Source: a virus. From it: 16,094 nt of DNA. The stretch lies in the UHGV virus genome UHGV-0121456. One strand, given 5' to 3'. Below, piece after piece: positions 514 through 16,094 of this stretch. Position 1 is the first letter of the stretch. The number at the start of each line of letters is the position of its first letter. Under the pieces are notes generated by a model. The model had not been told where the DNA came from. It saw only the letters and a program-made list of their open reading frames with translations, and searched no databases. The translations under genes and the position numbers were made by a program.

Positions 514-625
514 AACCCCACCTCGCAGACAAAGCGGGTGTAAATTGAGGGAATACTACGAAACGTAACAGACTCGGAGTCAGTGAATAACTCAGGTATT
601 GGGTTATCAGCTAATATCGAGACTC

Positions 626-658
626 AAAAAATGGAAAAACCCGCTCGACGGCGGGTTT
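626..658 (-). terminator. Rho-independent terminator on the minus strand, tR'-like, upstream of the lysis cassette
   Basis: Perfect 8 bp stem 637-644/651-658 (aaacccgc/gcgggttt) with a 6 nt loop. On the minus-strand RNA it is followed by UUUUUCCAUUUUUU (complement of 626-636). Confidence 0.6.
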
Positions 659-696
659 AAGCTGTGTGACGAAGTAACCACTCTTAACACATTACA

Positions 697-724
697 TGAT
701 AAAATGCGGACCGCGTTAGTAATA
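697..724 (+). promoter_or_regulatory. Candidate promoter for the moron gene (extended -10 TGaTAAAAT at 697-705, or TTAGTA/TAATAT elements at 716-724)
   Basis: AT-rich region 30-55 bp upstream of the ATG at 751 with sigma70-like -10 elements. No strong -35. Read by eye only. Confidence 0.3.
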
Positions 725-750
725 TTTTTCTCATATATTGGGTTCACTAC

Positions 751-1497: not shown

Positions 1498-1506
1498 ATC
1501 TGTTAC

Positions 1507-1550
1507 GCAGCAACAAAGTTAAACTCTATGTTGCTGCCTTAATTTTATTA
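1507..1550 (+). terminator. Candidate intrinsic terminator for the moron transcript
   Basis: Perfect 9 bp stem gcagcaaca/tgttgctgc (1507-1515/1529-1537) with a 13 nt loop, followed by cttaattttatta. It starts 10 bp after the moron stop. Confidence 0.45.
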
Positions 1551-1910
1551 CTCCATTTCTAAACGAATATCCAGCATCGAGAGACAACCATCTATAAACC
1601 CTTCAGCCAACTGTATCTCTATACGTATCAATTTCTCATCTTTTTTGTATGCTTTTGCTATCTTCCTTTTCGAGATGCCATACAGGTAATGAGCCACAAT
1701 CAGAGAGTGCTCATACGGTTTTCTCTTCTTAAGAAGAGCAAGACAACCTTCAATAATTAATGCATCACTATCTGAACAAGCCTGACGTGTTTTGCTTGTA
1801 TAGGGAAGAAGCCCTTTAAACCCAGCAGCTATAGGAGAATAGTCTACTCCAGAACTATCACTCGCCGCCCATGCTCCCCAACGCTCCAGAACCATCTGAA
1901 TATCACGCAT
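1548..1910 (-). CDS. Q: Late-gene antiterminator Q (Q21/QuuD-like family)
   Basis: Translation MRDIQMVLERWGAWAASDSSGVDYSPIAAGFKGLL... matches my recollection of E. coli QuuD. Probable start is ATG at 1910..1908 with GGAG 7 nt upstream; the ORF-track start at 1913 is a TTG. It sits immediately upstream of the lysis region. Confidence 0.8.
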   Translation of the reverse strand: MRDIQMVLERWGAWAASDSSGVDYSPIAAGFKGLLPYTSKTRQACSDSDALIIEGCLALLKKRKPYEHSLIVAHYLYGISKRKIAKAYKKDEKLIRIEIQLAEGFIDGCLSMLDIRLEME

Positions 1911-1927
1911 CAACTTTCTCCACCAAA

Positions 1928-2923
1928 TCAGGCCAACACACCAATCGCCAGCGCGCGATCGATAAAACGAAATATCAGCTCCAGCTGAGAGCCATACTTC
2001 TCTTCAAATGCCACGGTATCCGCATGCAGCTCGTCGTGATGCTTTCTGCACAAAGGCAACACAAAGAGGTCATGCGCTTTTGTACCCATTCCACCCTGAC
2101 CGTGGCCTATCAGGTGGTGGGGATCATCAGCAGGCTTTCCACAACATGCACACGGCTGTGTCTTAACCCAGCGCGTGTACTTTTCATTAACCCAGCGGCG
2201 GCGTTTTGGGCGTAACATAAAAGACTCCGGCGACTCCGGATCCACTTTCAGCGCCAGCACCTTTTTCGCTTTATCCTGGATGATGCTGGTGGCAGGAACC
2301 GAAGGCACAAGGTCACTTTCCCGGGTGACAGACGGCACAACAGGCTTCGGTAATCTCAGTGCCTTACGGGCTGCACTTTCCGGTAAGGCATCCGCCAGAT
2401 CATTACGAATCAGCCACCAGCACAGTTCCGGCATTGTCACAACGTGACTGTCATCAAAACCGAGATCCCGACGCACAACAGACAACACCCAGCGGGCACA
2501 GTTATCCGTTGCCATTGATTCCAGCCGTTCCGTGAACTGATCGCGCAACTGGTTATCGCAATGCCAGCACAGACGGATTGCGCCCGGCGCGTGTCGCATT
2601 GTTGTCATGTTCTCGCTGTGCCAGTCGGAATGAGGCCACTGGCAGCCTTTTTCACGAAGTAACCAGCTTTCAAGACATTCCACGCCACCAGCACGACGAA
2701 TCACTGCCTCATTGCGGAACACTGCCCGAACGGCAGGATCATCCGCCAGCGGTTGTGATGCCGCCGGAACGGCACCACTGGCGAAAGATGAATAACGTTC
2801 CGGCTCAGGCTCCAGCAGGACACGCCCCTGCATAAACAGGGGCATCAGCTCTGAACCTGGTCTGAACAATACGATCCCCATACGCGGGGCAATTTCAGGG
2901 GTCAGTAGTGCTCTCACGGTCAC
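1928..2923 (-). CDS. DUF968-family protein (YdfU-like) with a C-terminal HNH-like Cys/His cluster
   Basis: 331 aa; C-terminal CACCGKPADDPHHLIGHGQGGMGTKAHDLFVLPLCRKHHDELH. Nin-region position between KilA-N and Q. The track start is GTG; the exact start is uncertain. Confidence 0.7.
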   Translation of the reverse strand: MTVRALLTPEIAPRMGIVLFRPGSELMPLFMQGRVLLEPEPERYSSFASGAVPAASQPLADDPAVRAVFRNEAVIRRAGGVECLESWLLREKGCQWPHSDWHSENMTTMRHAPGAIRLCWHCDNQLRDQFTERLESMATDNCARWVLSVVRRDLGFDDSHVVTMPELCWWLIRNDLADALPESAARKALRLPKPVVPSVTRESDLVPSVPATSIIQDKAKKVLALKVDPESPESFMLRPKRRRWVNEKYTRWVKTQPCACCGKPADDPHHLIGHGQGGMGTKAHDLFVLPLCRKHHDELHADTVAFEEKYGSQLELIFRFIDRALAIGVLA

Positions 2924-2924
2924 C

Positions 2925-3734
2925 TCAATGAACGGTATCGAGCAGCTTTAACAGCTCAGGGAATCGGGATTCGAAGAAATGCGGCTGCGTCTCGCGCGGA
3001 TTTGCGGGACTGGTGATGTTCTTGCCGAACATGCAGCCTTTCGCTGTCAGTGACCAGAATTTTTTGATGTTGTTAATCGCGGTACGGCTGTATCGTTCGC
3101 GCTGCTCGACGATCCCCAGCTTCACCATCTGGTGATATGCCTGATTAGCTGTCAGGCGGATACCATACTGCTTCAGCAGTGCACTCAGTGACAGCGTGGG
3201 GCGGCTTGAGCCATCAGGCGCGTCAGCAGGAGCATCAATGGCATAGCGCGGTGCCAGATTCGGTAAGCCAACAGCCTCCTGGAGTTTCTGACAGGCCCCA
3301 AGCACTGAAGAGTTAGACAGGTTTAACTCCCTGCGCATAAAGTCCAGCAGAATCACTCCAGCCTGCATCTTGTCAGCAGCCTGCCCGGATAATTTTTCCG
3401 GTGCGCTGGTTACCATATCGAAAGTACGGATCACCTTCAGATGGAATGACGGGCTGATCCACATTGCATAGGCATACACCAGTTCTTTGCAGACATACGT
3501 CCCCTGGTTATTTCCGCCATTAATGACGCTAACTGGTTGATTTTGTTCCAGAGGCGGAATTCCACCCTCGGTGAAAAGTTGTTCAATCAATTCACAGGTT
3601 TGCTTATTGGAGAGCCAGTATTTCGGGCGGTTTTTTTGTTCTCCCCCGGCTGCCCTGTGCAGATCGTTCAGGCTGTAACGCCCATAAGCATCACGACGAA
3701 CTTCAATACCATCAATAACCATCAGATTATTCAT
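2925..3734 (-). CDS. KilA-N domain protein (antirepressor-like)
   Basis: N-terminus MNNLMVIDGIEVRRDAYGRYSLNDLHRAAGGEQKNRPKYWLSNKQTCELIE fits the KilA-N DNA-binding domain. ATG at 3734 with a GGAGA Shine-Dalgarno. Confidence 0.7.
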   Translation of the reverse strand: MNNLMVIDGIEVRRDAYGRYSLNDLHRAAGGEQKNRPKYWLSNKQTCELIEQLFTEGGIPPLEQNQPVSVINGGNNQGTYVCKELVYAYAMWISPSFHLKVIRTFDMVTSAPEKLSGQAADKMQAGVILLDFMRRELNLSNSSVLGACQKLQEAVGLPNLAPRYAIDAPADAPDGSSRPTLSLSALLKQYGIRLTANQAYHQMVKLGIVEQRERYSRTAINNIKKFWSLTAKGCMFGKNITSPANPRETQPHFFESRFPELLKLLDTVH

Positions 3735-4466: not shown

Positions 4467-5116
4467 GCCGTCATCTCCCTGACCAGTTTTTCCGCCTGCT
4501 GGCGAACCTGCGCCAGAAAGGCCTCACCACATGCCTCAAGTTCATCGCGCCCGATGTAGCTGATTGCCGGTCCCTTCCAGGTCTTGTCGAAAACAGCAAT
4601 AGCACCAGCGAAGAAAGCGCCTGTCGGCACCTGCTTCTCATCCTTCGGGATAAACCAGGCAGGCAGTTCAAAACCAATACGCCCGCGAATAAAAGCAATA
4701 TGGTCTGCGTCTTCCGGCCACCATACTTCGCTGGTGGCAGCTTTGATCAGGAAAACATAGCGCCCGCCTTTATCACGCATGGCACTGGCATGCTTCATGA
4801 TGTAACGCATGCCGGTGATGTATTGCCCCTCATGCTGACTGGCGCGGCTGTATGGGGGATTACCAAAGGCAGCACCTTTAAGCTCCGCAAGACGTTCTGA
4901 CCAGTCATGCGCCAGCGCGTTGTCTTCCGCCGTGTAATACGCGGCACATTTGGCGTTATCACCGTCAGTGAACAGATCCAGAACAAACGGACCAAACAGG
5001 GTGTTAATTCCCCAGAAAATGTTATCTGGCGTGCGCCACTGATCGCCCACTTCCTTCAGTTCATGGGCTGGTTTGTTCCGCAGTTCCACCAGTGCCTGAC
5101 AATATTTATTACTCAT
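4463..5116 (-). CDS. Phage N6-adenine DNA methyltransferase (Dam-like, Phage_N6A_met type)
   Basis: FGNPPYS catalytic motif. Probable start is ATG at 5116..5114 (MSNKYCQ...) with GGGGG Shine-Dalgarno and TAATG overlap with the upstream gene; the ORF-track start at 5149 is an in-frame GTG inside the upstream gene. Confidence 0.8.
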   Translation of the reverse strand: MSNKYCQALVELRNKPAHELKEVGDQWRTPDNIFWGINTLFGPFVLDLFTDGDNAKCAAYYTAEDNALAHDWSERLAELKGAAFGNPPYSRASQHEGQYITGMRYIMKHASAMRDKGGRYVFLIKAATSEVWWPEDADHIAFIRGRIGFELPAWFIPKDEKQVPTGAFFAGAIAVFDKTWKGPAISYIGRDELEACGEAFLAQVRQQAEKLVREMTA

Positions 5117-5606: not shown

Positions 5607-6548
5607 TCACCCCCTGAATCCTGCCGGGATCTGGCTGTAGTCCACGTTGTCGTAACTGGCTTTGAAGTACGGGTCTTCGCGTTTTTCGGTGTACGTGCTG
5701 ACGGACGGCGATAAGCGCAGGGAAAGCTCATCCCATTTTTCCCGCAGCTTCGACGGGCTGAGCACGTTACGGCACCAGAACGGATCGCGGCTGACGCGGC
5801 TGTACATCTCGCAGATTTGTTTGTGAGTACGACCATCCTGCACACACATCAGGCGAATTTCGTTTGCCCAGGCTGTCCAGTTCGGTTCTTTGGGACGAAC
5901 CACCTCGCCGTCACATTCGGCGGCCTGCTCGTACAGGGCGATGATTTTTTTCCAGAGCCACTGTGCGCAGGTCAAATCATCCTGCGTTCCCCACTGGCGC
6001 TTTTTAGGGCTGAATACAACCGCATCAGGATGGCGAGTTAAAAAATCCTGTTCATCCGTCTGCGTGTCCGGTTGCGAAGCGTCCGGACGAGAAGGTTTTT
6101 TATCTGACGGATCATGTTTTGATTTTACTGACGGATCCCCGCCAGATTCTGACGGGTGAAAACCCGCTTTTTTGCCAGATTTCGACGCATCAAATTTTGA
6201 CGGGTCAGATTTTGATGCGTCAGATTTTGACGGGTCAGAATCTGACAGTTGAGAAAATGCCGCTGCCTGAAGCTTCGCAACGTTAAGCTGATAAACATTC
6301 GACGCATTGCGGTTACCCTGGCGACGCGCCTTACGCGTTAACCAGCCTTCTGCTTCCAGCCGTGCGATAGCCGTTCTGACGGTACTCATCCCCGCGCCAA
6401 TCTGACGGGCAATGGTTTCAATTGATGGCCAGCACACACCTTCGTCATTACTGAAATCAGCCAGGCGGGCCATAATTGCCACGCTGGATAATTTCATGCC
6501 TGACGCTGCGCAACCATCCCATACATAGCCGGTTAATTTAGTGCTCAT
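5607..6548 (-). CDS. Replication initiation protein (lambda O-like organiser): N-terminal helix-turn-helix, repeat-encoded linker, C-terminal domain
   Basis: N-terminus [70 protein letters not shown] is a winged-helix replication-initiator type. Internal SDPSKSDASKSDPSKFDASKSG repeats are encoded by DNA iterons. Position is cro-proximal. Confidence 0.7.
   Translation of the reverse strand: MSTKLTGYVWDGCAASGMKLSSVAIMARLADFSNDEGVCWPSIETIARQIGAGMSTVRTAIARLEAEGWLTRKARRQGNRNASNVYQLNVAKLQAAAFSQLSDSDPSKSDASKSDPSKFDASKSGKKAGFHPSESGGDPSVKSKHDPSDKKPSRPDASQPDTQTDEQDFLTRHPDAVVFSPKKRQWGTQDDLTCAQWLWKKIIALYEQAAECDGEVVRPKEPNWTAWANEIRLMCVQDGRTHKQICEMYSRVSRDPFWCRNVLSPSKLREKWDELSLRLSPSVSTYTEKREDPYFKASYDNVDYSQIPAGFRG
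6145..6253. repeat. Iterons (about 15 bp tandem repeats, ATTTTGACGGGTCAG-like): candidate replication origin inside the initiator gene
   Basis: Units at 6194-6208, 6209-6223 and 6224-6238, with degenerate copies at about 6145-6161, 6176-6193 and 6239-6253. A moderately AT-rich stretch lies at 6085-6125. Confidence 0.6.
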
Positions 6549-6717
6549 GACCGACCTCTATTTCCCTGAATTTACGACGAAACTGTTCGAGCGGGCTGAA
6601 GCACTCATGCTCATAGCCTTCACGGAGGTAGATAACCCGTTGTGTTTCCGGCTCCCAACGAATGACTCTGACGGGCACTCCGTAGTGATCTTTGAACCAG
6701 CGGTTAACTTGTCGCAA
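6538..6717 (-). CDS. Alternative-frame small ORF (59 aa, TTG start) or the true C-terminus of the preceding gene after a frameshift
   Basis: Frame ending at TAA 6540..6538 encodes [58 protein letters not shown]. It overlaps the replication-gene ATG (ATGAGCACTAA). AAGGAG at 6731..6726 lies 8 nt upstream of TTG at 6717..6715. Confidence 0.35.
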
Positions 6718-6896
6718 AGGACTGTCTCCTTCTGCCGGTTGAAATCACCCACAGCCCACTCAGCAAAGCTGTGGGTTACAATTTCCCTGTCACCTGGTAC
6801 ATTCACTGCATAGCAATACTCCACCTTCGCTTTTCCACCCGGTACAGGAAGCGCAATCAGTTGCGAGCGACGGTAGTGTGTTGTTAAACTGTTCAT
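6558..6896 (-). CDS. Hypothetical protein, frame-conflicted; the N-terminal half looks genuine, the C-terminal half looks like out-of-frame translation
   Basis: ATG at 6896..6894 is coupled (ATGA) to the upstream CII-like gene. The second half ([55 protein letters not shown]) is Ser-rich and low in complexity. Confidence 0.4.
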
Positions 6897-7456
6897 GCGT
6901 TAGTTTCTCCACAGTCACGACACGCCACGGCGCCCGGAGCTGCACACTCGCGGGCGTCACTACTTTCTGAAACGCAAAAGATTTTGTAGACCAGTGCTGC
7001 ATGCTCCTGCAGCTTCGAAATTGAGAGATACAGCTCGTCGTTAATTGCTGTCTTCTCATGCGGTTCCACTACACCGTCTTCGATTGCTGAACGAATCTGT
7101 TTTGAATAACTGCCGATCTGTTCAATGACTTCCAGCAGACGCTGGTTAATATCGGCGTTGTCCACATCCTCGACGTCAGGAAGAGACACAAAGACGCCAT
7201 TTGCAGACTGCGCCACAGCGTCAGCAATGAAGTGAGTTCCACCAGCACGTTGCAAAATCATTGCCCATCCCAGCGGGAAAATCTGATCGCCATCGGCACG
7301 AAGGCGGTTAAATAATGCGTTCTCTGTTACATCCAGCCAGTCAGCAGCTTCAGCGTAACCCCCCGGCAACGCTGCGATAGTTTTTCTGACAGCTTTCACG
7401 TACCACTCAGGCTGTTTTTCTATTTTCCAGTGATGCTTACCCACGGTTAGCCTCAT
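6893..7456 (-). CDS. CII-like or YdaT-like early regulatory protein (tentative)
   Basis: 187 aa immediately downstream of cro on the same strand, the position lambda cII occupies. Family assignment is tentative and from memory. Start is ATG at 7456, or GTG at 7444 with an AGG Shine-Dalgarno. Confidence 0.45.
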
Positions 7457-7487
7457 CGTTCTGTGGTTAAAAATTGAAAGTGTTCTG

Positions 7488-7688
7488 CTAATCTTTCGGA
7501 TAGATATCCGGTCTTAAGTCAGATTTCGTAATTGCACCTGACGTGCATTGCTCAAGTTTTTTAGCCAGCACAAAACTGGCTTTTTTATAGCCATTGAAAA
7601 CCAGCCGTAAGTAGCCAGGTGTTGAGCCAACTTTTCCGGCCAACTCGCCCTGCTGTTCTTTGGTTAAAGAGTCCCAATACGCTTTCAT
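7488..7688 (-). CDS. cro: Cro-like helix-turn-helix repressor
   Basis: 66 aa MKAYWDSLTKEQQGELAGKVGSTPGYLRLVFNGYKKASFVLAKKLEQCTSGAITKSDLRPDIYPKD. ATG at 7688..7686 with GGAGG 10 nt upstream. Divergent from cI. The longer track ORF 7488..7991 would run through the operator region. Confidence 0.75.
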   Translation of the reverse strand: MKAYWDSLTKEQQGELAGKVGSTPGYLRLVFNGYKKASFVLAKKLEQCTSGAITKSDLRPDIYPKD

Positions 7689-7778
7689 ACAATATGTACC
7701 TCCGGTGTACATATTACATGATTGAAATGAACCTTCAAGATACTTGTACCTTAACGGTACAAGGGTTTTAATTTCGTT
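7689..7778. promoter_or_regulatory. OR-like immunity region: two palindromic operators (7692-7714 ATATGTAC-N7-GTACATAT; 7743-7763 CTTGTACC-N5-GGTACAAG) overlapping divergent promoters
   Basis: Perfect 8 bp inverted repeats sharing TGTAC-N7-GTACA. Candidate pR on the minus strand: -35 TTGAAG (7738..7733), 16 nt spacer, -10 TAATAT (7716..7711). Candidate pRM on the plus strand: -10 TTTAAT (7767-7772) about 7 nt before the cI ATG, which would make cI mRNA leaderless. Confidence 0.55.
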
Positions 7779-8453
7779 ATGAAAACAATCCATGACATCC
7801 GGCGGTCTAACGCCAGAAAACTGAGAGATGGTGTTGGCGGGAATTCTTCCTTTGCCACTATGATTGATCGCGAGCCAACCCAGACCAGCAGGTTTATGGG
7901 AGATGGTGCTACTAAAAATATCGGTGACAGCATGGCACGACACATCGAAAAATGTTTCGACCTGCCTGTCGGATGGCTCGATCAAGAACACCAGACAACG
8001 AACATCACAAAAAAACCTGATGTTTCAATCACTAATAAACAAATCACATTAGTCCCTGTCATATCATGGGTACAGGCCGGAGCATGGAAAGAAGTTGGAT
8101 ATTCTGAGGTTGATTTGAGCACAGCAGAAACGTATCCCTGCCCTGTACCCTGTGGGGAAATGACTTATATCTTGCGGGTGATAGGTGATTCAATGATTGA
8201 TGAGTACCGCCCGGGAGACATGATTTTTGTCGATCCTGAAGTACCTGCCTGCCACGGTGACGACGTTATTGCATTGATGCACGATACAGGCGAAACCACC
8301 TTCAAAAGGTTGATAGAAGATGGGACACAGCGTTATCTCAAAGCGTTAAACCCAAACTGGCCTGAGCCTTACATTAAGATCAACGGTAATTGCTCTATAA
8401 TTGGTACAGTGATTTTCTCAGGAAAACCAAGAAGATACAAAATCAAAGCCTAA
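7779..8453 (+). CDS. cI: CI-type prophage repressor (helix-turn-helix plus S24 LexA-like autopeptidase domain)
   Basis: 224 aa. C-terminal GDSMIDEYRPGDMIFVD ... TFKRL holds the Ser/Lys dyad. Divergent from cro across the operator region. No strong Shine-Dalgarno. Confidence 0.85.
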   Translation: MKTIHDIRRSNARKLRDGVGGNSSFATMIDREPTQTSRFMGDGATKNIGDSMARHIEKCFDLPVGWLDQEHQTTNITKKPDVSITNKQITLVPVISWVQAGAWKEVGYSEVDLSTAETYPCPVPCGEMTYILRVIGDSMIDEYRPGDMIFVDPEVPACHGDDVIALMHDTGETTFKRLIEDGTQRYLKALNPNWPEPYIKINGNCSIIGTVIFSGKPRRYKIKA

Positions 8454-8465
8454 TCAATGTTTATG

Positions 8466-8488
8466 AACCTGCTTCGGCAGGTTTTTTT
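8466..8488 (+). terminator. Intrinsic terminator downstream of cI
   Basis: 7 bp stem aacctgc/gcaggtt (8466-8472/8477-8483) with loop ttcg, followed by a run of seven T ending at 8488. It lies 13 bp after the cI stop. Confidence 0.75.
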
Positions 8489-8492
8489 ATAC

Positions 8493-8536
8493 TTGACAAT
8501 GTACCTTTGAGATACATAATGTACCCAAGCGAAACA
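8493..8536 (+). promoter_or_regulatory. pL-like promoter with overlapping OL-like operator half-sites
   Basis: TTGACA (8493-8498), 16 nt spacer, CATAAT (8515-8520). TGTAC at 8500-8504 with ATACA at 8512-8516 (N7 spacing as in the OR operators), and a second TGTAC at 8520-8524. Confidence 0.5.
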
Positions 8537-8667
8537 ACGAACAGGCAGGACGCCCACGAAGTAGCCGCCTGAGGCATATGAAGTCCTAGATGATTCGTTA
8601 GCAACAAAAAAGCGCCCTAGTGCACGCTTCGCTCTTTAACAATCTGGATATCCACAACAGTAGCAAT

Positions 8668-9159
8668 CTACAGATTGCCGTTAAGTTTTCTGGACAACTC
8701 CTCAATGGATGGAGGCGATACATAATCTGGATTTTTATTCATCAGAAACTTATTTTCACAGTGGAGGCACCTGCTTTTATGAAAAAGCTCATCTTCGCTA
8801 ACCGGGAATGGTTGAAGTATCGATACTATCTTTTGTCCAAAACATTTTGGGCAAAGATGCATGGTTATGCTGCCACCGTTCACGATTACCTCCTTCGAGT
8901 ATACAAAAGTACCCGACTCAAGTTGGTTAAGGATATAGCCTTCCGTCTGAGCCTCAAAGTTTTCGAATTCTGCAATTTTAGCTTTGAGAGAAGCATTTAT
9001 TTCTTGATAAGAGCCCACCAGTTCAACGAGAGACACGCATTCGCGCTGAATAGACGCAAGCTTTGAGTTCAGCTCACCAATAGCCGCATTTACTTCAGCT
9101 TGAGTTTTTGCCTCGTTCATTAGTTTTGCAATCTGGGCTGTTTCACGAATAGCCGTCAT
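8668..9159 (-). CDS. Hypothetical coiled-coil protein with a C-terminal Cys4 zinc-ribbon-like motif (CPKC ... CLHC); candidate accessory gene next to cI
   Basis: About 163 aa from ATG at 9159..9157 (MTAIRETAQIAKLMNEAKTQAEVNAAIGELNSKLASIQ...); GTG at 9183 is an alternative start. The upstream part of the 259 aa track ORF looks like junk. AT-rich island on the strand opposite to cI. Confidence 0.55.
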   Translation of the reverse strand: MTAIRETAQIAKLMNEAKTQAEVNAAIGELNSKLASIQRECVSLVELVGSYQEINASLKAKIAEFENFEAQTEGYILNQLESGTFVYSKEVIVNGGSITMHLCPKCFGQKIVSILQPFPVSEDELFHKSRCLHCENKFLMNKNPDYVSPPSIEELSRKLNGNL

Positions 9160-9197
9160 TGCTGCCGTTAATTCAGCGATCACATTGAATACTCTTA

Positions 9198-9243
9198 TTG
9201 TTGTTGGGGATATCCAGATTAACCGAATCCTTGTTGTTGGGGA
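9198..9243. repeat. Two exact 13 bp direct repeats TTGTTGTTGGGGA (9198-9210 and 9231-9243) upstream of the zinc-ribbon gene
   Basis: Exact copies 33 bp apart, 40-85 bp upstream of the start codon at 9159 on the minus strand. Candidate regulator-binding sites. Confidence 0.5.
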
Positions 9244-9469
9244 ATAACCAGGTCCACCTCGCCTGATGTGGCTAAAAGCAGGCACATAACAGCTAAGTAT
9301 TTTCAACCAGAGAGAATCCTTAGCGTTGTGGTGAATGCGGCTCAGCGCACGCGGGTTAAGGTTGAGGCTGACAGTCGACCTTCTGTGGATACCCACCCGC
9401 CTGGTGTGCAACCTTCGCCAGGCACCGGGAGGCACCCGGCACCACAACTTTATGCTGTGTGTAGTCCTG

Positions 9470-9515
9470 GCGGTACCAGTTTGTACCCTTGCTTCCAGCT
9501 GGTACCGCTCTTTTT
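9470..9515 (+). terminator. Strong intrinsic terminator (tL-like) in the structured intergenic region
   Basis: 10 bp perfect stem gcggtaccag/ctggtaccgc (9470-9479/9499-9508) with a 19 nt loop, followed by tcTTTTTac. Confidence 0.55.
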
Positions 9516-9652
9516 ACAAAACAGAGAAGAGCATCACCGGACGACGGGCTCATAACCCAATCCATCCGGGCGGCTGCCACCGCAGGTGTTCTTCTCTGTT
9601 TTGTGGAGAAACCAACCGACCTTGCAGGGTCGATATGATGAGGAACAGCAAA

Positions 9653-11033: not shown

Positions 11034-11570
11034 ATGTCATTTATTAAAACTTTTTCCGGGAAGCATTTTTATTATGACAGGATAAATAAAGACAACATCG
11101 ATATTAACGATATCGCGGTTTCCCTTTCAAATATCTGTCGCTTTGCCGGTCATCTTTCACACTTCTACAGCGTCGCCCAACATGCGGTGCTTTGCAGCCA
11201 GCTGGTGCCGCAGGAATTTGCTTTTGAAGCGTTAATGCATGATGCAACAGAAGCGTATTGCCAGGACATCCCCGCGCCACTGAAACGCCTTCTTCCTGAC
11301 TATAAACGGATGGAAGAAAAAATAGACGCCGTAATCCGTGAGAAATACGGGTTACCCCCGGTTATGAGTACGCCCGTGAAATATGCCGATCTCATCATGC
11401 TGGCAACCGAACGCCGTGATCTCGGGCTTGATGATGGCTCTTTCTGGCCTGTACTGGAAGGCATCCCGGCAACAGAGATGTTCAACGTGATTCCACTGGC
11501 ACCTAGCCATGCCTACGGGATGTTTATGGAACGTTTTAACGAGTTATCGGAGTTACGCAAATGCGCATGA
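11034..11570 (+). CDS. yfdR: HD-domain phosphohydrolase (YfdR-like, 5'-deoxynucleotidase family), 178 aa
   Basis: HD motif region ...HAVLCSQLVPQEFAFEALMHDATEAYCQDIP... Probable start is ATG at 11034 with GGAG 6 nt upstream; the track start at 11022 is GTG. Confidence 0.75.
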   Translation: MSFIKTFSGKHFYYDRINKDNIDINDIAVSLSNICRFAGHLSHFYSVAQHAVLCSQLVPQEFAFEALMHDATEAYCQDIPAPLKRLLPDYKRMEEKIDAVIREKYGLPPVMSTPVKYADLIMLATERRDLGLDDGSFWPVLEGIPATEMFNVIPLAPSHAYGMFMERFNELSELRKCA

Positions 11571-11923
11571 ATGTTTTCGAAATGGAAGGGTTTCTTCGCG
11601 GGAAATGTGTACCGCGAGATCTGAAAGTGAACGAAACAAATGCTGAGTACCTGGTACGTAAATTCGACGCGCTTGAAGCTAAATGTGCGGCACTGGAAAA
11701 CAAAATAATACCAGTGTCAGCTGAACTGCCACCAGCAAATGAAAGTGTTCTGTTATTTGATGCTAACGGAGAAGGCTGGCTGATTGGCTGGCGTTCTCTC
11801 TGGTACACCTGGGGACAAAAAGAAACCGGAGAATGGCAGTGGACATTTCAGGTCGGGGACCTTGAAAACTTCAATATCACTCACTGGGCAGTAATGCCAA
11901 AAGCGCCGGAGGCTGGAGCATAA
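11561..11923 (+). CDS. yfdS: YfdS-like protein (120 aa) with a DUF551-like C-terminus
   Basis: ATG at 11561 with GGAG upstream; overlaps the yfdR-like stop. C-terminal ITHWAVMPKAPE motif. Confidence 0.6.
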   Translation: MRMNVFEMEGFLRGKCVPRDLKVNETNAEYLVRKFDALEAKCAALENKIIPVSAELPPANESVLLFDANGEGWLIGWRSLWYTWGQKETGEWQWTFQVGDLENFNITHWAVMPKAPEAGA

Positions 11924-12543
11924 TGACCACTTTCACCGATAAGGAACTGATTAAAGAAATCAAAGAACGAATCGGCAGCTTAGACGTGCGAGACAATGTT
12001 GAGCGCCGTGCTTATGAAATTGCTCTGGCATCACTGGAAGCAGAGCCGGTGGCGTGGCTTCATTCAGACAATGGCTTAGGTATTCCGGCAATAACCAGGA
12101 GCAAAAACATTGCTGACAGTTGGTTATCAAGGGGCTGGTATGTTCAGCCGCTATATATGGCTCAGCCAGTGTCGGTGGTGCCGGATGCTCTTCCGTCTTT
12201 AAATAATGGCATAGTCGGCTTTGATGAAGGCTGGAACGCCTGCCGCGCCGTCATGCTTCATGGTGCCGAACCTGTAAGCCAGACTTACAAGTTGAACAAG
12301 CTGTCGGGCAACTCTCCGGTAACTCCGGATGGTTGGATAAGCTGTAGTGAGCGAATGCCGAACGATAAACAGTATGTTTGGTGTTGGGGGAAGTCTTACG
12401 GCTGGACTGAGTGCGATACCTTCGAAGGGTATTACGATTGGTCGAGAAACAAATGGTGGGCAATTACTGACGATGGGGAAGAACCGGCATCGAAAGTAAC
12501 CCACTGGATGACGCTACCGGAGCCACCGCAGGAGGTGAAGTAA
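11923..12543 (+). CDS. DUF551 domain protein (YfdT-like region)
   Basis: 206 aa. C-terminus WISCSERMPNDKQYVWCW ... THWMTLPEPP is typical of DUF551. TAATG coupling with neighbours at both ends. Confidence 0.65.
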   Translation: MTTFTDKELIKEIKERIGSLDVRDNVERRAYEIALASLEAEPVAWLHSDNGLGIPAITRSKNIADSWLSRGWYVQPLYMAQPVSVVPDALPSLNNGIVGFDEGWNACRAVMLHGAEPVSQTYKLNKLSGNSPVTPDGWISCSERMPNDKQYVWCWGKSYGWTECDTFEGYYDWSRNKWWAITDDGEEPASKVTHWMTLPEPPQEVK

Positions 12544-12758
12544 TGAACAACTTAATGACAACTAAACAAGTCGCCGACTTCTGTGGCGTTTCAGTATCGA
12601 CCGTTCTTCGCTGGAACAGTGTAAACAGGAGAACTGGCCAGAAATACAGGCCAGACTTTCCAGATCCTGATATTAAATCCTGCCCAAATAAATGGGCATC
12701 ACGTAAGATTTACAAATTTGCCGGAGTTATTGAGGAATGTGAAGCAGCTCAGATATGA
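12543..12758 (+). CDS. Excisionase-like or AlpA-family helix-turn-helix DNA-binding protein (putative recombination directionality factor)
   Basis: 71 aa. MTTKQVADFCGVSVSTVLRW is a helix-turn-helix. GGAGG Shine-Dalgarno. Last gene of the early-left operon, near the integrase. Confidence 0.6.
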   Translation: MNNLMTTKQVADFCGVSVSTVLRWNSVNRRTGQKYRPDFPDPDIKSCPNKWASRKIYKFAGVIEECEAAQI

Positions 12759-12801
12759 GATGACACATCCTATAGCACATAGCCAAACATAGCAATCAGA
12801 C

Positions 12802-12826
12802 TGTCCGCTTTGTGTTGAAGCGGACA
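12802..12826 (+). other. Stem-loop downstream of the xis-like gene (8 bp stem tgtccgct/agcggaca); possible terminator or boundary of the cargo island
   Basis: Perfect 8 bp inverted repeat with a 9 nt loop and no clear U-tract. It marks the transition into the AT-rich cargo region. Confidence 0.3.
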
Positions 12827-12988
12827 TTGCCGCAGCGACTTGTCTTAGCCATAAATAACCAAAACGATGCGCTGTTCATATAAAGTTCTTTTAAACTTCA
12901 AATCAGTAATTTTTGTCTAAATCTTTTCAAACTCATAAAAACCAGTAAGATAAGAAATCACCTTTACCTGTTTTTATGAGAGGCATAA

Positions 12989-14215
12989 ATGATTGATAAT
13001 GAAGTTAAAATTTTTGCAAAAGAAAAAGAAAAAATGCTGTGCAACAAACTTTCTTTTTACAGGGAGCATGCTCAATCGAGTGAAGATACAAGAAAAAGAA
13101 ACGAATTTGAACGAGACTATGCGCGTATTCTTTATTCCTCTTCGTTCCGCCGGTTACAGGGGAAAATGCAGCTCTTTGAAGTCGATCCTCAAAAATTTAA
13201 CCGTAATAGACTGACTCATAGCCTAGAAGTTGCCCAGATAGCCCGAAGCATCGCATCCGAACTAGAACTTGAACATCCTGTTGTAGCAGAACTGGCTGCA
13301 CTTGCTCACGATATTGGCAACCCTCCGTTTGGTCATTCCGGTGAAAAAAAGCTAAACGATATTGCTAATGATTTCGGCGGCTACGAAGGCAATGCACAGG
13401 CACTTAGAATACTCAGAAGTCTCGAGATAAAGCATCCAAATTGCCCCGGTCTCAACCTTACCCACCGTGCCATTCTCTCCGTCGTTAAATATCCTTATAA
13501 AAAGGAAAACGGCAGAAAAAAATATCTTTATAATGATGACTATAAATACTACACAGAATTGGTAAATAGATATGAATTAGATTTGCAGACTGGCGAGAAG
13601 ACCATTGATGCACAGATAATGGATCTGTCAGACGAAATTGCATATGCCGCGCATGACCTTGAAGATGCACTAAGCCGTAGCATGGTCAGTATTGAAGATA
13701 TTTTTTATGAGTTTGGGATATCCAAGTACAAAGACTCAATTGATTTATTAAATACAATCATTGAAAAATCTAAATATACAGCTTCGAGAGCATCAAGACT
13801 CAATTCATCTGAAGAGTTCGCCATAATATTCAGAAAGGAATTGACATCCAATATTGTTAATGCGCTTGTTAATGATATTACTGTTATTCAAAGTGAAAAT
13901 GGATTCAAGCAACTTGGATTTAGCACTACAAAAAATCTGTCTGCAGGCCTTAAAGATATCGTATTTAAAGTCATCATGCGAAAAAGAGATATTAAAAGTT
14001 ATGAGCACAAAGGAAACATTATCATCGAAGATTTATTTAATTTTTATAATTATAGAGATAACATAGAATTCATATCCCCTCAACTGTATAGAACGCTCCC
14101 AAATAAAATAGAGCCTATTTATCAAGAACTTAAAAAACGTGCAATTGTCGACTACATCTCTGGAATGATGGATACATTTGCCATCCGCGAGTGGGAAACG
14201 CATCACAAAAAATAA
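12989..14215 (+). CDS. dGTPase-family HD-domain deoxynucleoside triphosphate triphosphohydrolase (Dgt-like); candidate nucleotide-depletion defence gene
   Basis: 408 aa. Motifs RLTHSLEVAQIARSIA, HDIGNPPFGHSGE, YEGNAQALRIL, DLSDEIAYAAHDLEDAL, VDYISGMMDTFAIREW match E. coli Dgt signatures. ATG at 12989 with GAGAGG Shine-Dalgarno. Sits in a strongly AT-rich island between the xis-like gene and the integrase. Confidence 0.85.
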   Translation: MIDNEVKIFAKEKEKMLCNKLSFYREHAQSSEDTRKRNEFERDYARILYSSSFRRLQGKMQLFEVDPQKFNRNRLTHSLEVAQIARSIASELELEHPVVAELAALAHDIGNPPFGHSGEKKLNDIANDFGGYEGNAQALRILRSLEIKHPNCPGLNLTHRAILSVVKYPYKKENGRKKYLYNDDYKYYTELVNRYELDLQTGEKTIDAQIMDLSDEIAYAAHDLEDALSRSMVSIEDIFYEFGISKYKDSIDLLNTIIEKSKYTASRASRLNSSEEFAIIFRKELTSNIVNALVNDITVIQSENGFKQLGFSTTKNLSAGLKDIVFKVIMRKRDIKSYEHKGNIIIEDLFNFYNYRDNIEFISPQLYRTLPNKIEPIYQELKKRAIVDYISGMMDTFAIREWETHHKK

Positions 14216-14261
14216 CCAAACTGGCGCACATCAACAACAGATTCAGTGCCACTCTTCCCAT

Positions 14262-14283
14262 GGGACAGAACAGTGATTCTGTC
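14262..14283 (+). other. Hairpin downstream of the dGTPase gene (8 bp stem ggacagaa/ttctgtcc, 6 nt loop); possible terminator
   Basis: Perfect inverted repeat 47 bp after the stop, preceded by the palindrome CCCATGGG. Weak U-tract. Confidence 0.3.
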
Positions 14284-14586
14284 CATTATCACCCGATTAT
14301 ACAGATAAGCCACATCTAGTAGTTCTGAGCTAGCATTTTCCACATTGATTACGCTTCCGTGCACATCGTTATTTTTAACCAAAAAGAAAGGACATATGCA
14401 AAAATAATATCAAGTAACGGAGTGTGTTAAATCGTAACCAATCATCTTTACTTTACATTTCGTAACTTAAACCGTACGTTTTCTAAACATTAAATATACA
14501 CTTTGCGCTGTAAGTTGTATCTCTCCGTTAAGCTCACTGCTCAACGCCAATAGTCATATTTTATTGCGTTCTGGCTGCGCAAATTG

Positions 14587-15810
14587 TCAACTGGAATCTG
14601 AACTAGGACAAGTAACGAGCGATTCAACCCTCTCCCACCATACCTGGTAGGCTTTACGCTGTTCTTCTAGATAATCGCTCTTGTCATAAACCTGCCATAC
14701 CCCTGGCAGCTTATGACCAAGCATAATTTCTGCAATATGAGGCGCAGTAAGATCAGAAAAGTTTGTTCGTGCTGTTCGCCTCAAATCATGAAGAGACCAA
14801 TGAGGGAATTGATACCCCAAACGTCGCCATGCGAACTGCATTAAATTGTAAGGCAGCGACTGCAATGATGTCCGACCAACTGGCTCCCTGCTTCCTTCCT
14901 TAGTAAAAAGCATATCGGAACCGTTGTTCATAGAGATAACGTATTTTATAAGCTCTTCAACCGGTTCAATAATGGGCCGCTTTAGTGGTTCGCCTGTTAT
15001 CTCCCCTGTCTTATGTCGTTCTGGCGGTACAGTCCATACCTTATTAATGAAATCAAAATCGTCCACCCTGGCGGTAATTAGCTCTGAACTACGGCAGCCA
15101 AAATGCAGCAATAGTTTAATGAAGGCCCGGTATTTAGGAACCATTCGAGAACCATCGATCGCAGCATAAAGGATTTTAATTTCATCATGTGTCAGAAACC
15201 GTTTCTTCTGACCTTTACGGATATCCATATCTTTACCCGTGATATCCGACAGCGGGCGAGTTTCAATGAGCTTTCTCTTATACGCCCAGACATGGGCCTG
15301 CTTTGCGTTAATTAGTAATCGGTCTGCTATTGCTGGAGCCTTAGTGCTAAGAGGCTCCAGGACTTCTAACCAATCATGCAATGTAGCTGCATCGTGAGGG
15401 ATATTCCCGATTTTAGAGAACAGGTGCAACTCAAACGAGCGGAGTATCTGTTCAGAACCCTTTTTATTTTTTACACAATATGCTTCATACCAGGCACGGA
15501 TCACAGACTCTACCGTCATGGCTTCAGTAGCTTTTCGTTTTTCAGCCTGCTTGACCAATCGTGGATTACGGTTTGACTCGAGTTCACCACGGAGACGGAT
15601 AACTTCTTCTCTGGCCTCTTTTAATCCAGTTGCCGGGTAAGTTCCGATATCAAGACGCTCACCTTTCCCTGCCCATTGATAACGATATTGGAACACTACG
15701 CGACCTTTCGGTGATACTCTGACAGACAGACCATCACGATCGGATTTAACCAAAACCTTATCACGTTCCTTTCCAACGACTGAACGCAACCACGCATCAG
15801 ACAGCGCCAT
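14587..15810 (-). CDS. int: Tyrosine-type site-specific integrase (P4-like, with N-terminal arm-binding DUF4102-like domain)
   Basis: 407 aa. N-terminus MALSDAWLRSVVGKERDKVLVKSDRDGLSVRVSPKG...YRYQWAGKGERLDIGTYP. C-terminal catalytic signatures HDLRRTART and a terminal Tyr region. AGGTGA Shine-Dalgarno before ATG at 15810. Confidence 0.9.
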   Translation of the reverse strand: MALSDAWLRSVVGKERDKVLVKSDRDGLSVRVSPKGRVVFQYRYQWAGKGERLDIGTYPATGLKEAREEVIRLRGELESNRNPRLVKQAEKRKATEAMTVESVIRAWYEAYCVKNKKGSEQILRSFELHLFSKIGNIPHDAATLHDWLEVLEPLSTKAPAIADRLLINAKQAHVWAYKRKLIETRPLSDITGKDMDIRKGQKKRFLTHDEIKILYAAIDGSRMVPKYRAFIKLLLHFGCRSSELITARVDDFDFINKVWTVPPERHKTGEITGEPLKRPIIEPVEELIKYVISMNNGSDMLFTKEGSREPVGRTSLQSLPYNLMQFAWRRLGYQFPHWSLHDLRRTARTNFSDLTAPHIAEIMLGHKLPGVWQVYDKSDYLEEQRKAYQVWWERVESLVTCPSSDSS

Positions 15811-15818
15811 TACTCACC

Positions 15819-15877
15819 TTGTACAAATCGCAAAACACCTCTGCTGCTTTGTACATTATGTACAAGCATATGTACAG
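15819..15877. promoter_or_regulatory. Cluster of four TGTACA hexamers upstream of int (15820-15825, 15850-15855, 15859-15864, 15871-15876), including the palindrome TTGTACAttaTGTACAA
   Basis: Same TGTAC core as the OR/OL operators. Lies in the int promoter and att-proximal arm region, which is AT-rich. Confidence 0.35.
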
Positions 15878-16094
15878 ATTTTTGATGAAAGCAACCTGAT
15901 CGATTTAAAGTTACATGAAAGAATCTTCAATTAAAAAGTCACACAAATATATGTATTTAAATGATTTATATGACCAAAACTCAATTAACTGAAAGGATTT
16001 TGAAAGAGTAAAAGAGCTTTAATTTGGGCTTAATTATTGGGGTGAGAAATAATGGCAAAAGTGCGGCGCTTCGCCACCTCTTGCAAATAAGGAG

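What the first reader, a model, noticed from the sequence alone, without database searches (positions are those of the whole stretch)
12759..14586. AT-rich single-gene cargo between the xis-like gene and int encodes a dGTPase-family triphosphohydrolase
ORF 12989-14215 has the hallmark Dgt motifs (HDIGNPPFGH, EGNAQ, DYISGMMD) but is shorter than housekeeping Dgt (about 505 aa). It sits alone in a roughly 1.8 kb island that is markedly more AT-rich than the prophage backbone, flanked by hairpins at 12802-12826 and 14262-14283. dGTP-depleting dGTPases are a described anti-phage defence class, and the position next to the integrase is a classic cargo hotspot. The same prophage also encodes an HD-domain nucleotidase (YfdR-like, 11034-11570), so two nucleotide-pool enzymes are co-resident.
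Basis: partly seen in the sequence, partly recalled or inferred. Interest (0 to 1): 0.7.

Follow-up and report, generated by a model that had tools for sequence, protein, structure and literature searches.

The report
Prophage-carried anti-phage dGTPase cassette

Summary
ORF 12989-14215 (+, 408 aa) is an intact HD/HD_assoc dGTP triphosphohydrolase in the most AT-rich stretch of the window (36.8% vs 48.0% GC), between xis (12543-12758) and int (14587-15810).

It is not housekeeping Dgt: 24% identity, and dgt is core in 5425/5426 complete E. coli genomes while this gene is in 42. It is not the Tal et al. Sp-dGTPase clade either: 31.6% identity to the validated E. coli G177-type enzyme, and NF041026 scores 275.6 against a cutoff of 400.

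Its closest characterised relative is Vdg, the octameric, dAMP-activated Vibrio cholerae anti-phage dGTPase (PDB 9VWA; 51-54% identity end to end). All 11 catalytic and dGTP-pocket residues and 7 of 8 dAMP-site residues are identical.

The xis-int slot is a defence hotspot. Sister prophages at the same yjjG/prfC site carry Borvo BovA, Dsr1, an HNH endonuclease or unknown genes there.

The gene travels as a ~1.6 kb cassette (12877-14490). This cassette also lies beside Shango and Avs3 in other species, and the gene is on Klebsiella plasmids.

Verdict: new member of a known kind. It belongs to a tail-less Enterobacterales subclade with a shifted allosteric arginine.

The parts
12543..12758 (+). 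xis-like excisionase (71 aa), the last backbone gene before the variable slot
   Evidence: phrog_1553 excisionase at 122.5 bits. Weak HTH_17/MerR hits. Annotated as excisionase in phages cdtI and 2H10.
12802..12826 (+). Backbone hairpin (9-bp stem) just downstream of xis, marking the left edge of the variable slot
   Evidence: Perfect inverted repeat. MFE -16.6 kcal/mol, z -2.1. Retained in sister phages carrying other cargo, with changes in both arms read by eye as compensatory, and homology ends right after it.
12877..14490 (+). Mobile dGTPase cassette: 112 nt of upstream DNA, the ORF and about 275 nt of downstream non-coding DNA
   Evidence: 82-84% nucleotide identity, with the same left border, to Enterobacter hormaechei (L016/L017/L023) and Providencia heimbachae (L024, to 14317) in unrelated genomic contexts.
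12924..12951 (+). Candidate own promoter (TTTTCA, 16 nt, TAAGAT). Inferred, and weak.
   Evidence: Read from the sequence. It matches 8 of 12 consensus positions, so it falls below the scan threshold. It is conserved in the Enterobacter cassette upstream region.
12932..12980 (+). 17-nt inverted repeat that overlaps the candidate -10 and ends where the GAGG Shine-Dalgarno (12980-12983) begins
   Evidence: 88% complementary. RNA fold -13.4 kcal/mol, z -2.8. The 3' arm is NOT conserved in L016, so its function is doubtful.
12989..14215 (+). Stand-alone dGTPase (408 aa), Vdg class, tail-less Enterobacterales subclade. Identical to WP_023154557.1.
   Evidence: Family hits. 9VWA at 383 bits over the full length. 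Residue map. dN/dS 0.14-0.17. AF2 model pLDDT 89.5 with the dGTPase fold.
14263..14284 (+). Cassette hairpin GGACAGAA-cagtga-TTCTGTCC, 48 nt after the stop codon. Candidate 3' stabiliser or terminator.
   Evidence: -13.2 kcal/mol, 0/200 shuffles. It is 100% conserved in L016, L023 and L024 while the surrounding downstream DNA is about 71% identical and carries indels. There is no T-run, so it is not a canonical terminator.
14555..14586 (.). Right edge of the variable slot, where backbone homology resumes just before the int stop codon
   Evidence: blastn against L002, L003 and L004 resumes at 14555, 14563 and 14580.
14587..15810 (-). Tyrosine integrase (407 aa), convergent with xis and the dGTPase
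   Evidence: Arm-DNA-bind_3, Phage_int_M and Phage_integrase domains. PGAP annotation.
16040..16053 (.). Approximate position of the 14-bp attachment-site duplication (prophage end). yjjG lies beyond the window.
   Evidence: Coordinate transfer from the 'duplication due to insertion' feature of LC727889. Host genes yjjG, rimI and holD follow in L001.

Best explanation
The ORF is a stand-alone anti-phage dGTP triphosphohydrolase of the Vdg class. A temperate lambdoid phage carries it as a self-contained 'moron' cassette in the excisionase-integrase cargo slot.

Proposed mechanism: the gene is expressed in the lysogen from the cassette's own upstream region (inferred). The enzyme forms dimers that probably assemble into a higher oligomer; Vdg forms octamers (inferred). 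When another phage infects, the enzyme hydrolyses dGTP to deoxyguanosine plus triphosphate. Activity is boosted by a nucleotide bound at the dimer-interface allosteric site; in Vdg this is dAMP, which I suggest could come from DNA breakdown during infection (inferred). Loss of dGTP stalls replication of the invading phage, which protects the lysogen population and therefore the resident prophage.

Shown here: family membership, conservation of every catalytic and substrate residue, purifying selection, hotspot location, cassette mobility and defence-island association.

Inferred by homology: dGTP hydrolysis, oligomeric state, the allosteric ligand, expression in the lysogen, and protection.
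For: Family and fold:
- HD + HD_assoc domains; TIGR01353 scores 313 bits against a cutoff of 152; PADLOC dGTPase scores 349 bits.
- The best solved relative is Vdg (9VWA/9VWC/9VWG): 383 bits, residues 1-405 aligned to 1-390, 51-54% identity.
- Vdg has in vitro dGTPase activity. In E. coli it protects against T2, T4, T5, T6, T7 and phiX174, and H114A abolishes protection (PMC13519002).
- The AF2 model (pLDDT 89.5) matches the dGTPase fold, including Sp-dGTPase 9p8w.

Residue conservation:
- The catalytic dyad (H116, E119) and all nine dGTP-pocket residues are identical to Vdg, and invariant in 113 clade members.
- 7 of 8 dAMP-site residues are identical.
- 9 of 14 aligned octamer-interface residues are identical and three more are conservative changes.
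- dN/dS is 0.14-0.17.

Accessory and mobile:
- Present in 42/5426 complete E. coli genomes, against 5425/5426 for dgt.
- GC is 36.8% against 48.0% for the rest of the window.
- The same slot in sister prophages holds BovA (801 bits), Dsr1, an 868-aa HNH endonuclease and unknown genes.
- The same cassette sits between Shango SngABC and a Mokosh-like helicase in Enterobacter, and next to Avs3 in Providencia.
- Homologues lie next to a NACHT protein, near Thoeris, and in a CP4-like island.
- The gene's 85%-identical variant is on 79 plasmids, almost all Klebsiella and mostly conjugative.
Against: - No experiment has been done on this protein or on any member of its 60-85% identity subclade.
- Vdg's defence was shown by heterologous plasmid expression, which may overstate what native expression achieves.
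- The protein fails the curated NCBIfam antiphage_dGTPase cutoff (275.6 < 400). It is only 31.6% identical to the G177-type enzyme validated by Tal et al. In that study, homologues below 45% identity to Sp-dGTPase were rarely next to defence genes.
- The subclade lacks the Vdg C-terminal tail (Y400/K402 contacts), and the tail's partner residues D346 and E342 are not conserved. The quintuple mutant that included these tail residues abolished Vdg defence, so octamer formation is uncertain here.
- Vdg R31 is replaced by Asp33.
- No consensus sigma-70 promoter or intrinsic terminator was detected on the + strand.
- How the prophage would avoid starving its own replication on induction is unexplained.
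Confidence: 0.8

Rival explanations
1. The enzyme serves the phage's own life cycle rather than defending the host. Read-through from the early-left operon (yfdP to xis, same strand) would express it during induction. It would then remodel the dNTP pool, slow host chromosome replication or interfere with host defences.
For: The gene is on the same strand as xis and directly downstream of it, and no canonical terminator separates them. In the sampled sister prophages, all but one of the alternative cargo types lie on the int strand; the Stx2c 517-aa ORF is the exception. Distant dGTPase homologues (about 30% identity) occur in lytic phages. The backbone also encodes the HD protein YfdR, which is reported to affect DnaA and replication (PMC4776307).
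Against: The same cassette, with the same upstream border, sits in non-phage defence islands beside Shango and Avs3, and the gene is on conjugative plasmids. A phage-cycle role makes no sense in those contexts. A conserved backbone hairpin lies between xis and the cassette. Depleting dGTP would harm the phage's own DNA synthesis. The slot otherwise holds recognised defence genes.
Confidence: 0.08
2. It is a second housekeeping-type dNTP-pool enzyme that controls mutation rate or sanitises the pool, with no role in phage defence.
For: It belongs to the same superfamily as Dgt (TIGR01353). PGAP names it only 'deoxyguanosinetriphosphate triphosphohydrolase family protein'. Tal et al. considered distant homologues to be possibly housekeeping.
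Against: It is 24% identical to Dgt, and NF003429 scores 162 against a cutoff of 405. dgt is already present in 5425/5426 genomes, while this gene is in 42, always inside one prophage slot. It is AT-rich, horizontally mobile and associated with defence islands. It is closest to an enzyme with a demonstrated anti-phage phenotype.
Confidence: 0.04
3. It is the effector half of a two-component, signal-regulated system such as Clover (CloA dGTPase plus CloB nucleotidyltransferase). The partner would be lost or encoded elsewhere, leaving the gene inactive, toxic or differently regulated.
For: CloA also has the dGTPase fold (9p8u and 9p8t among the top Foldseek hits) and appears to be octameric (8 chains per entry; an AF2 octamer was the starting model). 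CloA alone is toxic and needs CloB (PMC12265719). About 275 nt of conserved non-coding DNA follows the ORF.
Against: Identity to CloA is only 23-25% (108 bits). No second conserved ORF exists in the cassette in any of the three contexts examined. Vdg, the close relative, works alone. The gene is intact and under purifying selection.
Confidence: 0.03

Closest known systems
Vdg (DGT1B_VIBCH), the octameric anti-phage dGTPase of Vibrio cholerae O1 (PDB 9VWA/9VWC/9VWG; Shi et al., Nat Commun 2026, PMC13519002)
   Same: Same length class (408 vs 402 aa) and a stand-alone single-domain architecture. Identity is 51-54% over the whole protein. The catalytic dyad, all nine dGTP-pocket residues and 7 of 8 dAMP-site residues are identical, as is the core of the dimer-dimer interface (E236, S270, E271, R322, K323, Y344, Y374, E386).
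   Different: The whole Enterobacterales subclade (40 sequences) lacks the Vdg C-terminal tail with Y400 and K402, and has lost conservation of the tail's partners D346 and E342. The dAMP-phosphate/gatekeeper residue R31 is acidic or Asn here, with an invariant Arg two positions downstream (R35): a charge swap. None of the four 16-mer contact residues is conserved. The gene is carried on a prophage, plasmids and defence islands; the genomic context of Vdg was not examined.
Sp-dGTPase clade (Shewanella putrefaciens CN-32, E. coli G177 and others; Tal et al. 2022; NCBIfam NF041026; PDB 9P8W)
   Same: Same fold and the same proposed mechanism: dGTP depletion on infection by a stand-alone defence gene. 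It matches the same PADLOC 'dGTPase' model.
   Different: Those proteins are 443-485 aa. Identity to the G177-type enzyme is 31.6%. NF041026 scores 275.6 against a cutoff of 400. The trigger for that clade was linked to T7 gp5.7/gp0.7, that is, host RNA polymerase shut-off. Nothing is known about the trigger here.
E. coli housekeeping Dgt (505 aa; PDB 4X9E, 6OIV)
   Same: HD-domain dGTP triphosphohydrolase superfamily with shared active-site motifs.
   Different: 24% identity and about 100 aa longer. It is a core gene in 5425/5426 genomes, hexameric, with an ssDNA effector site and T7 Gp1.2 as its inhibitor (stated in PMC13519002). The window gene is accessory and mobile.
Prophage defence hotspots (P2/P4 hotspots, Rousset et al. 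2022, PMC9122126)
   Same: Conserved flanks with interchangeable AT-rich cargo that includes recognised defence systems (here BovA, Dsr1, HNH endonuclease and the dGTPase).
   Different: The phage family is different (lambdoid, prfC/yjjG-integrating, including Stx1a, Stx2c and cdt converting phages), and so is the slot (between convergent xis and int). I found no paper describing this particular slot.

Membership tests
dGTP triphosphohydrolase subfamily (TIGR01353; Pfam HD + HD_assoc) | HD metal-binding domain plus the C-terminal HD_assoc domain, scoring above the curated cutoffs | tested here: met
   HD 52.3 bits (cutoff 22); HD_assoc 49.8 (22.2); TIGR01353 313.2 (152.35).
Vdg-class octameric anti-phage dGTPase (Shi et al. 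2026) | Full-length sequence relationship to Vdg | tested here: met
   383 bits, E 1e-113, residues 1-405 aligned to 1-390, 51-54% identity.
Vdg-class octameric anti-phage dGTPase (Shi et al. 2026) | Catalytic dyad H114/E117 and dGTP pocket (Q59, L60, N133, K165, Y166, K176, Y214, D218, E330) | tested here: met
   All 11 residues are identical in the window protein and invariant in 113 clade members.
Vdg-class octameric anti-phage dGTPase (Shi et al. 2026) | dAMP allosteric site (R31, R35, R40, R44, Y47, Q81, K146, V286) | tested here: inconclusive
   7 of 8 are identical. R31 becomes D33, while an invariant subclade Arg sits at position 35, where Vdg-like sequences are acidic. Ligand identity cannot be tested here.
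Vdg-class octameric anti-phage dGTPase (Shi et al. 2026) | Dimer-to-octamer interface residues | tested here: inconclusive
   9 of 14 aligned positions are identical, plus H->Y, K->R and Y->F. The C-tail contacts Y400/K402 are absent, and their partners D346 and E342 are not conserved in the subclade.
Vdg-class octameric anti-phage dGTPase (Shi et al. 2026) | Octameric assembly, dGTP hydrolysis and phage protection | not testable with these tools
   Only a monomer model could be made. This needs SEC-MALS or cryo-EM, enzyme assays and plaque assays.
Sp-dGTPase clade (Tal et al. 2022; NCBIfam NF041026 antiphage_dGTPase) | Score above the curated NF041026 cutoff; at least 45% identity to Sp-dGTPase | tested here: not met
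   275.6 bits against a cutoff of 400. Identity to the validated G177-type member is 31.6%; the 45.7% figure applies only to the 129-aa N-terminal fragment of Sp-dGTPase that was available.
Housekeeping Dgt (NF003429 / PRK04926) | Equivalog score; core chromosomal gene | tested here: not met
   162 bits against a cutoff of 405. 24% identity. Present in 42 genomes against 5425 of 5426 for dgt.
Clover (CloA dGTPase + CloB NTase) | An adjacent partner nucleotidyltransferase gene | tested here: not met
   No second conserved ORF in the cassette or slot. 23-25% identity to CloA.
Prophage defence hotspot (moron slot) | Conserved flanks with interchangeable cargo that includes recognised defence genes | tested here: met
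   Flank homology of 94-96% ends at 12769-12814 and resumes at 14555-14580. Alternative cargo: BovA (801 bits), Dsr1, an HNH endonuclease, and unknown genes.

The most novel reading that the evidence does not exclude
The Enterobacterales 'tail-less' subclade may be a mechanistically distinct variant of the Vdg class. It has lost the C-terminal tail and the tail's partner residues, and it has a charge-swapped allosteric loop (Arg moved from Vdg position 31 to window position 35). It could therefore have a different oligomeric state and/or a different activating nucleotide. Vdg R31 is described as the residue that excludes dADP and dATP, so those ligands are candidates. A related possibility is that prophages carrying the gene avoid self-starvation on induction through a backbone function. 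One candidate is the YfdR-like dNMP phosphatase on the early-left operon, which could lower the dAMP activator. That would be a built-in self-immunity or anti-defence mechanism against nucleotide-sensing dGTPases.
Probability: 0.12. Interest if true: 0.6.

Novelty: new member of a known kind. Interest (0 to 1): 0.3.

Why it matters
dGTP-depleting enzymes are the bacterial counterpart of human SAMHD1. This example shows a Vdg-class dGTPase moving as a compact 1.6 kb cassette, with the gene also on large conjugative Klebsiella plasmids.

- It is found in temperate phages, including Stx2c-converting phages of STEC (O157:H7 and O111:H8 strains are among the carriers).
- It is found in chromosomal defence islands in other species.
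- It could therefore influence which phages, therapeutic ones included, can infect these pathogens.

The practical gain is the hotspot itself. The xis-int slot of prfC/yjjG-integrating lambdoid prophages alternates between recognised defence genes and several genes of unknown function: a 517-aa ORF in Stx phages, a 239-aa protein, and a pair of small proteins. That makes those unknowns good candidates for new defence systems.

The finding also raises a testable question: how does a prophage that encodes a dGTP-depleting enzyme replicate after induction?

Tried and rejected
1. Promoter and terminator scan of 12400-14700. No + strand sigma-70 site and no intrinsic terminator were found. Expression signals therefore remain inferred; the only candidate is an 8/12 match (TTTTCA, 16 nt, TAAGAT) conserved in the Enterobacter cassette.
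2. The 17-nt inverted repeat at 12932-12980, considered as a regulatory operator or riboregulator. It folds well (z -2.8), but its 3' arm is not conserved in the 83%-identical cassette. I do not count it as a functional part.
3. A hidden gene or RNA in the conserved downstream 275 nt. No conserved ORF was found, and indels break every frame. There were no Rfam or tRNA hits anywhere in the window. Only the hairpin stands out.
4. A functional pairing with YfdR. Rejected as specific, because yfdR is present in all sampled sister prophages that retain this region, whatever their cargo.
5. Tal et al. Table S2, to see whether this clade was listed and scored for defence neighbourhood. The stored copy is cut at about 40% identity, so it gave no information.
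6. Foldseek against the PDB, to recover Vdg by fold. That library ends in April 2026 and lacks 9VWA, so it only confirmed the general dGTPase fold.
7. The genome-contig scan with a single protein returned only two loci. That was enough to define the cassette borders but not for a covariation test of the hairpin.
8. The Stx2c-slot 517-aa ORF and the 2H10 239-aa protein have no Pfam or PADLOC hits. They match only PHROGs of unknown function.
Full report
**Observation**

The window is a lambdoid E. coli prophage end. It is 100% identical over 12400-16094 to strain 13P477T and 12 other listed complete genomes, and it is integrated next to yjjG, the 'prfC' site of the STEC literature.

ORF 12989-14215 (+) encodes 408 aa containing AHDIGNPPFGH, YEGNAQ and DYISGMMD. 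It lies between an excisionase (12543-12758; phrog_1553, 122 bits) and a convergent tyrosine integrase (14587-15810).

The slot is 36.8% GC against 48.0% for the rest of the window, and it is the lowest-GC stretch of its size in the whole window.

Both hairpins exist: 12802-12826 with a 9-bp stem, and 14263-14284 with an 8-bp stem. Neither is a canonical terminator.

**What the protein is**

Pfam finds HD plus HD_assoc. NCBIfam TIGR01353 (dGTP_triPase) scores 313 bits against a cutoff of 152. The PADLOC defence model 'dGTPase' scores 349 bits (E 9e-105).

| Comparator | Result |
|---|---|
| Housekeeping Dgt (505 aa) | 24% identity; NF003429 scores 162 against a cutoff of 405 |
| Sp-dGTPase clade (Tal et al.), G177-type member | 31.6% identity; NF041026 scores 275.6 against a cutoff of 400 |
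| Vdg (PDB 9VWA/9VWC/9VWG, 402 aa) | 383 bits end to end; 51-54% identity |

Vdg is the V. cholerae O1 protein DGT1B_VIBCH. Shi et al. (Nat Commun 2026, PMC13519002) showed the following:

- It is a square octamer made of four dimers.
- It hydrolyses dGTP and is allosterically enhanced by dAMP.
- It protects E. coli against T2, T4, T5, T6, T7 and phiX174.
- Protection depends on the catalytic residue H114 and on the octamer interface.

An AlphaFold2 model of the window protein is confident (pLDDT 89.5, pTM 0.90). It matches dGTPase structures throughout, including Sp-dGTPase 9p8w, CloA and VC1979. 9VWA post-dates that fold library.

**Residue-level test**

I mapped the experimentally probed Vdg residues onto the window protein and onto 113 clade members.

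- The catalytic dyad (H116, E119) and all nine dGTP-pocket residues are identical and invariant.
- Seven of eight dAMP-site residues are identical.
- The Enterobacterales subclade holds 40 sequences at 58% identity or more to the window protein. It includes Providencia, Serratia, Cronobacter, Pantoea, Proteus, Edwardsiella, Klebsiella, Morganella and Xenorhabdus.

This subclade differs systematically from the Vdg-like group (73 sequences) in two ways.

1. Vdg R31, which contacts the dAMP phosphate and is described as excluding dADP and dATP, is Arg in 66/73 Vdg-like sequences and in 0/40 subclade members. The subclade instead has an invariant Arg two positions downstream, where Vdg-like proteins are acidic. 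This is a charge swap.
2. The subclade ends about three residues after the last helix (...EWETHHKK). It lacks the tail that carries Vdg Y400 and K402, and the residues that tail contacts (D346, E342) are no longer conserved.

The rest of the dimer-dimer interface is invariant (E236, S270, E271, R322, K323, Y344, Y374, E386). dGTP hydrolysis is therefore well supported by homology. Octamer formation and the identity of the allosteric ligand remain open.

The gene is under purifying selection, with dN/dS of 0.14-0.17 against the Enterobacter and Providencia copies.

**Context: a defence hotspot**

Related phages share the flanks at 94-96% identity but not the slot. Homology ends at 12769-12814 and resumes at 14555-14580.

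At the same yjjG site in the same phage family, the slot holds:

| Cargo | Where |
|---|---|
| Borvo CHAT protein BovA (801 bits) | phage cdtI; FDAARGOS_1267 |
| Dsr1 | isolate F138 |
| 868-aa HNH endonuclease | FDAARGOS_433 |
| 239-aa protein of unknown function | phage 2H10, ES1, WP4-S17 |
| two small hypothetical proteins | strain 95-3192 |
| 517-aa unknown ORF | Stx2c and, by equal slot length, probably Stx1a converting phages |

About 420 complete genomes carry this DUF551-xis module. Only 42 carry the dGTPase, always at this site, and two strains have a 1-bp deletion that splits the gene. By contrast dgt is in 5425/5426 genomes.

Among sequenced phages, only Stx2c_EH0430 and Stx2c_EH0474 carry the gene (99.3% aa identity). 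EH0430 is mosaic relative to the window: it shares the int-dGTPase-xis end at 99% identity but has different Q/lysis and immunity regions.

**The mobile unit**

The Enterobacter hormaechei and Providencia heimbachae copies share DNA with the window from exactly 12877 (112 nt upstream of the ATG). Homology runs to 14490 in Enterobacter and 14317 in Providencia, at 82-84% identity.

- In Enterobacter the cassette lies between Shango SngA, SngB and SngC (330, 618 and 923 bits) and a Mokosh-like helicase.
- In Providencia it lies next to Avs3a/b in an island that also encodes an integrase.
- More distant homologues sit next to a 2092-aa NACHT protein in Klebsiella, near ThsA/ThsB, and in a CP4-like island in E. 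coli.
- The gene's 85%-identical variant is on 79 plasmids, almost all Klebsiella and mostly conjugative.

The cassette's flanks evolve almost neutrally (76% identity upstream, 71% downstream, with indels). The hairpin at 14263-14284 is nevertheless identical in all three copies, so it is probably a functional 3' element. No ORF is conserved there.

The left hairpin (12802-12826) is a backbone feature. Sister phages with other cargo keep it, with changes in both arms that read as compensatory.

**Mechanism**

The most likely reading is a stand-alone, constitutively present defence dGTPase that depletes dGTP when another phage infects. This protects the lysogen and therefore the prophage. Confidence is about 0.8.

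The activation step is inferred from Vdg. The subclade's shifted arginine means the ligand could differ. Other defence dGTPases use other cues: T7 gp5.7/gp0.7-linked shut-off of host transcription for Sp-dGTPase, and dTTP with the inhibitor p3diT for Clover CloA.

Clover membership is excluded, because there is no partner gene.

Rival readings fit the cassette's presence outside phages, its accessory distribution and its neighbours poorly. These rivals are a phage-cycle function through xis read-through, a housekeeping role, or an orphan effector.

**YfdR**

yfdR is a backbone gene in all sampled sister prophages that retain this region. It matches YfbR-type models only weakly. It is reported to have low nucleotide affinities and to bind DnaA (PMC4776307). 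A link to dAMP-dependent activation is speculation, and I list it only under the novel case.

**Novelty and score**

Standard tools (PADLOC) already call this gene a defence dGTPase. Its clade now has a characterised, structure-solved representative, and prophage defence hotspots are an established concept (PMC9122126).

It is therefore a new member of a known kind, in a subclade with modest but systematic differences from Vdg. I found no paper describing this particular lambdoid xis-int slot. The slot is the more useful by-product, because it nominates several unknown cargo genes as defence candidates. Interest is 0.3.

Noticed in passing
window 751-1497 (+); AT-rich block about 514-1547: A 248-aa 'hypothetical protein' (WP_001406331.1; 37.6% GC) sits on the opposite strand between the Q antiterminator (1548-1913) and the lysis genes. 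That is the position where Stx phages are known, from the literature, to carry stx. Its N-terminal ~115 aa match the HNH nuclease domain of CBASS Cap5-type effectors and the PADLOC candidate PDC-M68A (93 bits; PDB 8ysq and 7rwk). The C-terminal half is unassigned. It is likely a second defence cargo in a second hotspot.
   Followed up: partly
L002 2065-3618 (+); L004 2121-2840 (-); L008 5684-6166 and 6208-6660 (-): Genes of unknown function occupy the same xis-int slot in sister phages: a 517-aa ORF in Stx2c converting phages (phrog_13820), a 239-aa protein (phrog_8440), and a pair of about 150-160-aa proteins. None has a Pfam or PADLOC hit where tested. Because they alternate with BovA, Dsr1 and the dGTPase, they are candidates for new defence genes.
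   Followed up: partly
window residues D33/R35 and the C-terminus of the 12989-14215 product; clade alignment: The Enterobacterales subclade shows a charge swap in the allosteric loop (Vdg R31 becomes acidic, and a new invariant Arg appears two positions later). It has also lost the Vdg C-terminal tail, together with conservation of the tail's contact residues D346 and E342.
   Followed up: yes
NZ_CP169013.1 (UTAK-22) and NZ_CP169008.1 (UTAK-13), hits H154/H155: In two veal isolates the dGTPase region is 1740 rather than 1741 bp, and the gene is annotated as two pieces ('hypothetical protein | HD domain-containing protein'). This is apparently a frameshifted copy, that is, occasional loss of function.
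   Followed up: no
plasmid hits H196-H210 (e.g. MG288679.1, NC_021199.1): The 85%-identical variant of the dGTPase is on 79 plasmids, almost all large Klebsiella pneumoniae plasmids. Across all 117 plasmid hits, 75 are predicted conjugative. Where named, the gene is annotated simply as dgt or dNTP triphosphohydrolase.
   Followed up: no
window 8454-9652 (ORF 8668-9183 on the - strand; frameshifted ORF about 9328-9638): Between the LexA-family repressor gene (ymfK-like, 7779-8453) and yfdP, this prophage has about 530 bp more than its sister prophages. The extra DNA includes a 171-aa gene (phrog_1244, unknown function; no PADLOC hit) and a frameshifted ORF. This may be another variable moron position.
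   Followed up: partly
window 12932-12980: A 17-nt inverted repeat overlaps the candidate -10 and ends where the Shine-Dalgarno sequence of the dGTPase begins. It folds well as RNA (z -2.8), but it is specific to the E. coli copy: the 3' arm is not conserved in the Enterobacter cassette.
   Followed up: yes
L025 (LC727889) against the window: The Stx2c-converting phage that carries the same dGTPase is mosaic relative to this prophage. The int-dGTPase-xis end is 99% identical, but window regions 1-1931, 4467-5112, 5683-9467 and 11665-12244 have no match. The cassette therefore travels with the integration module across different lambdoid backbones.
   Followed up: yes
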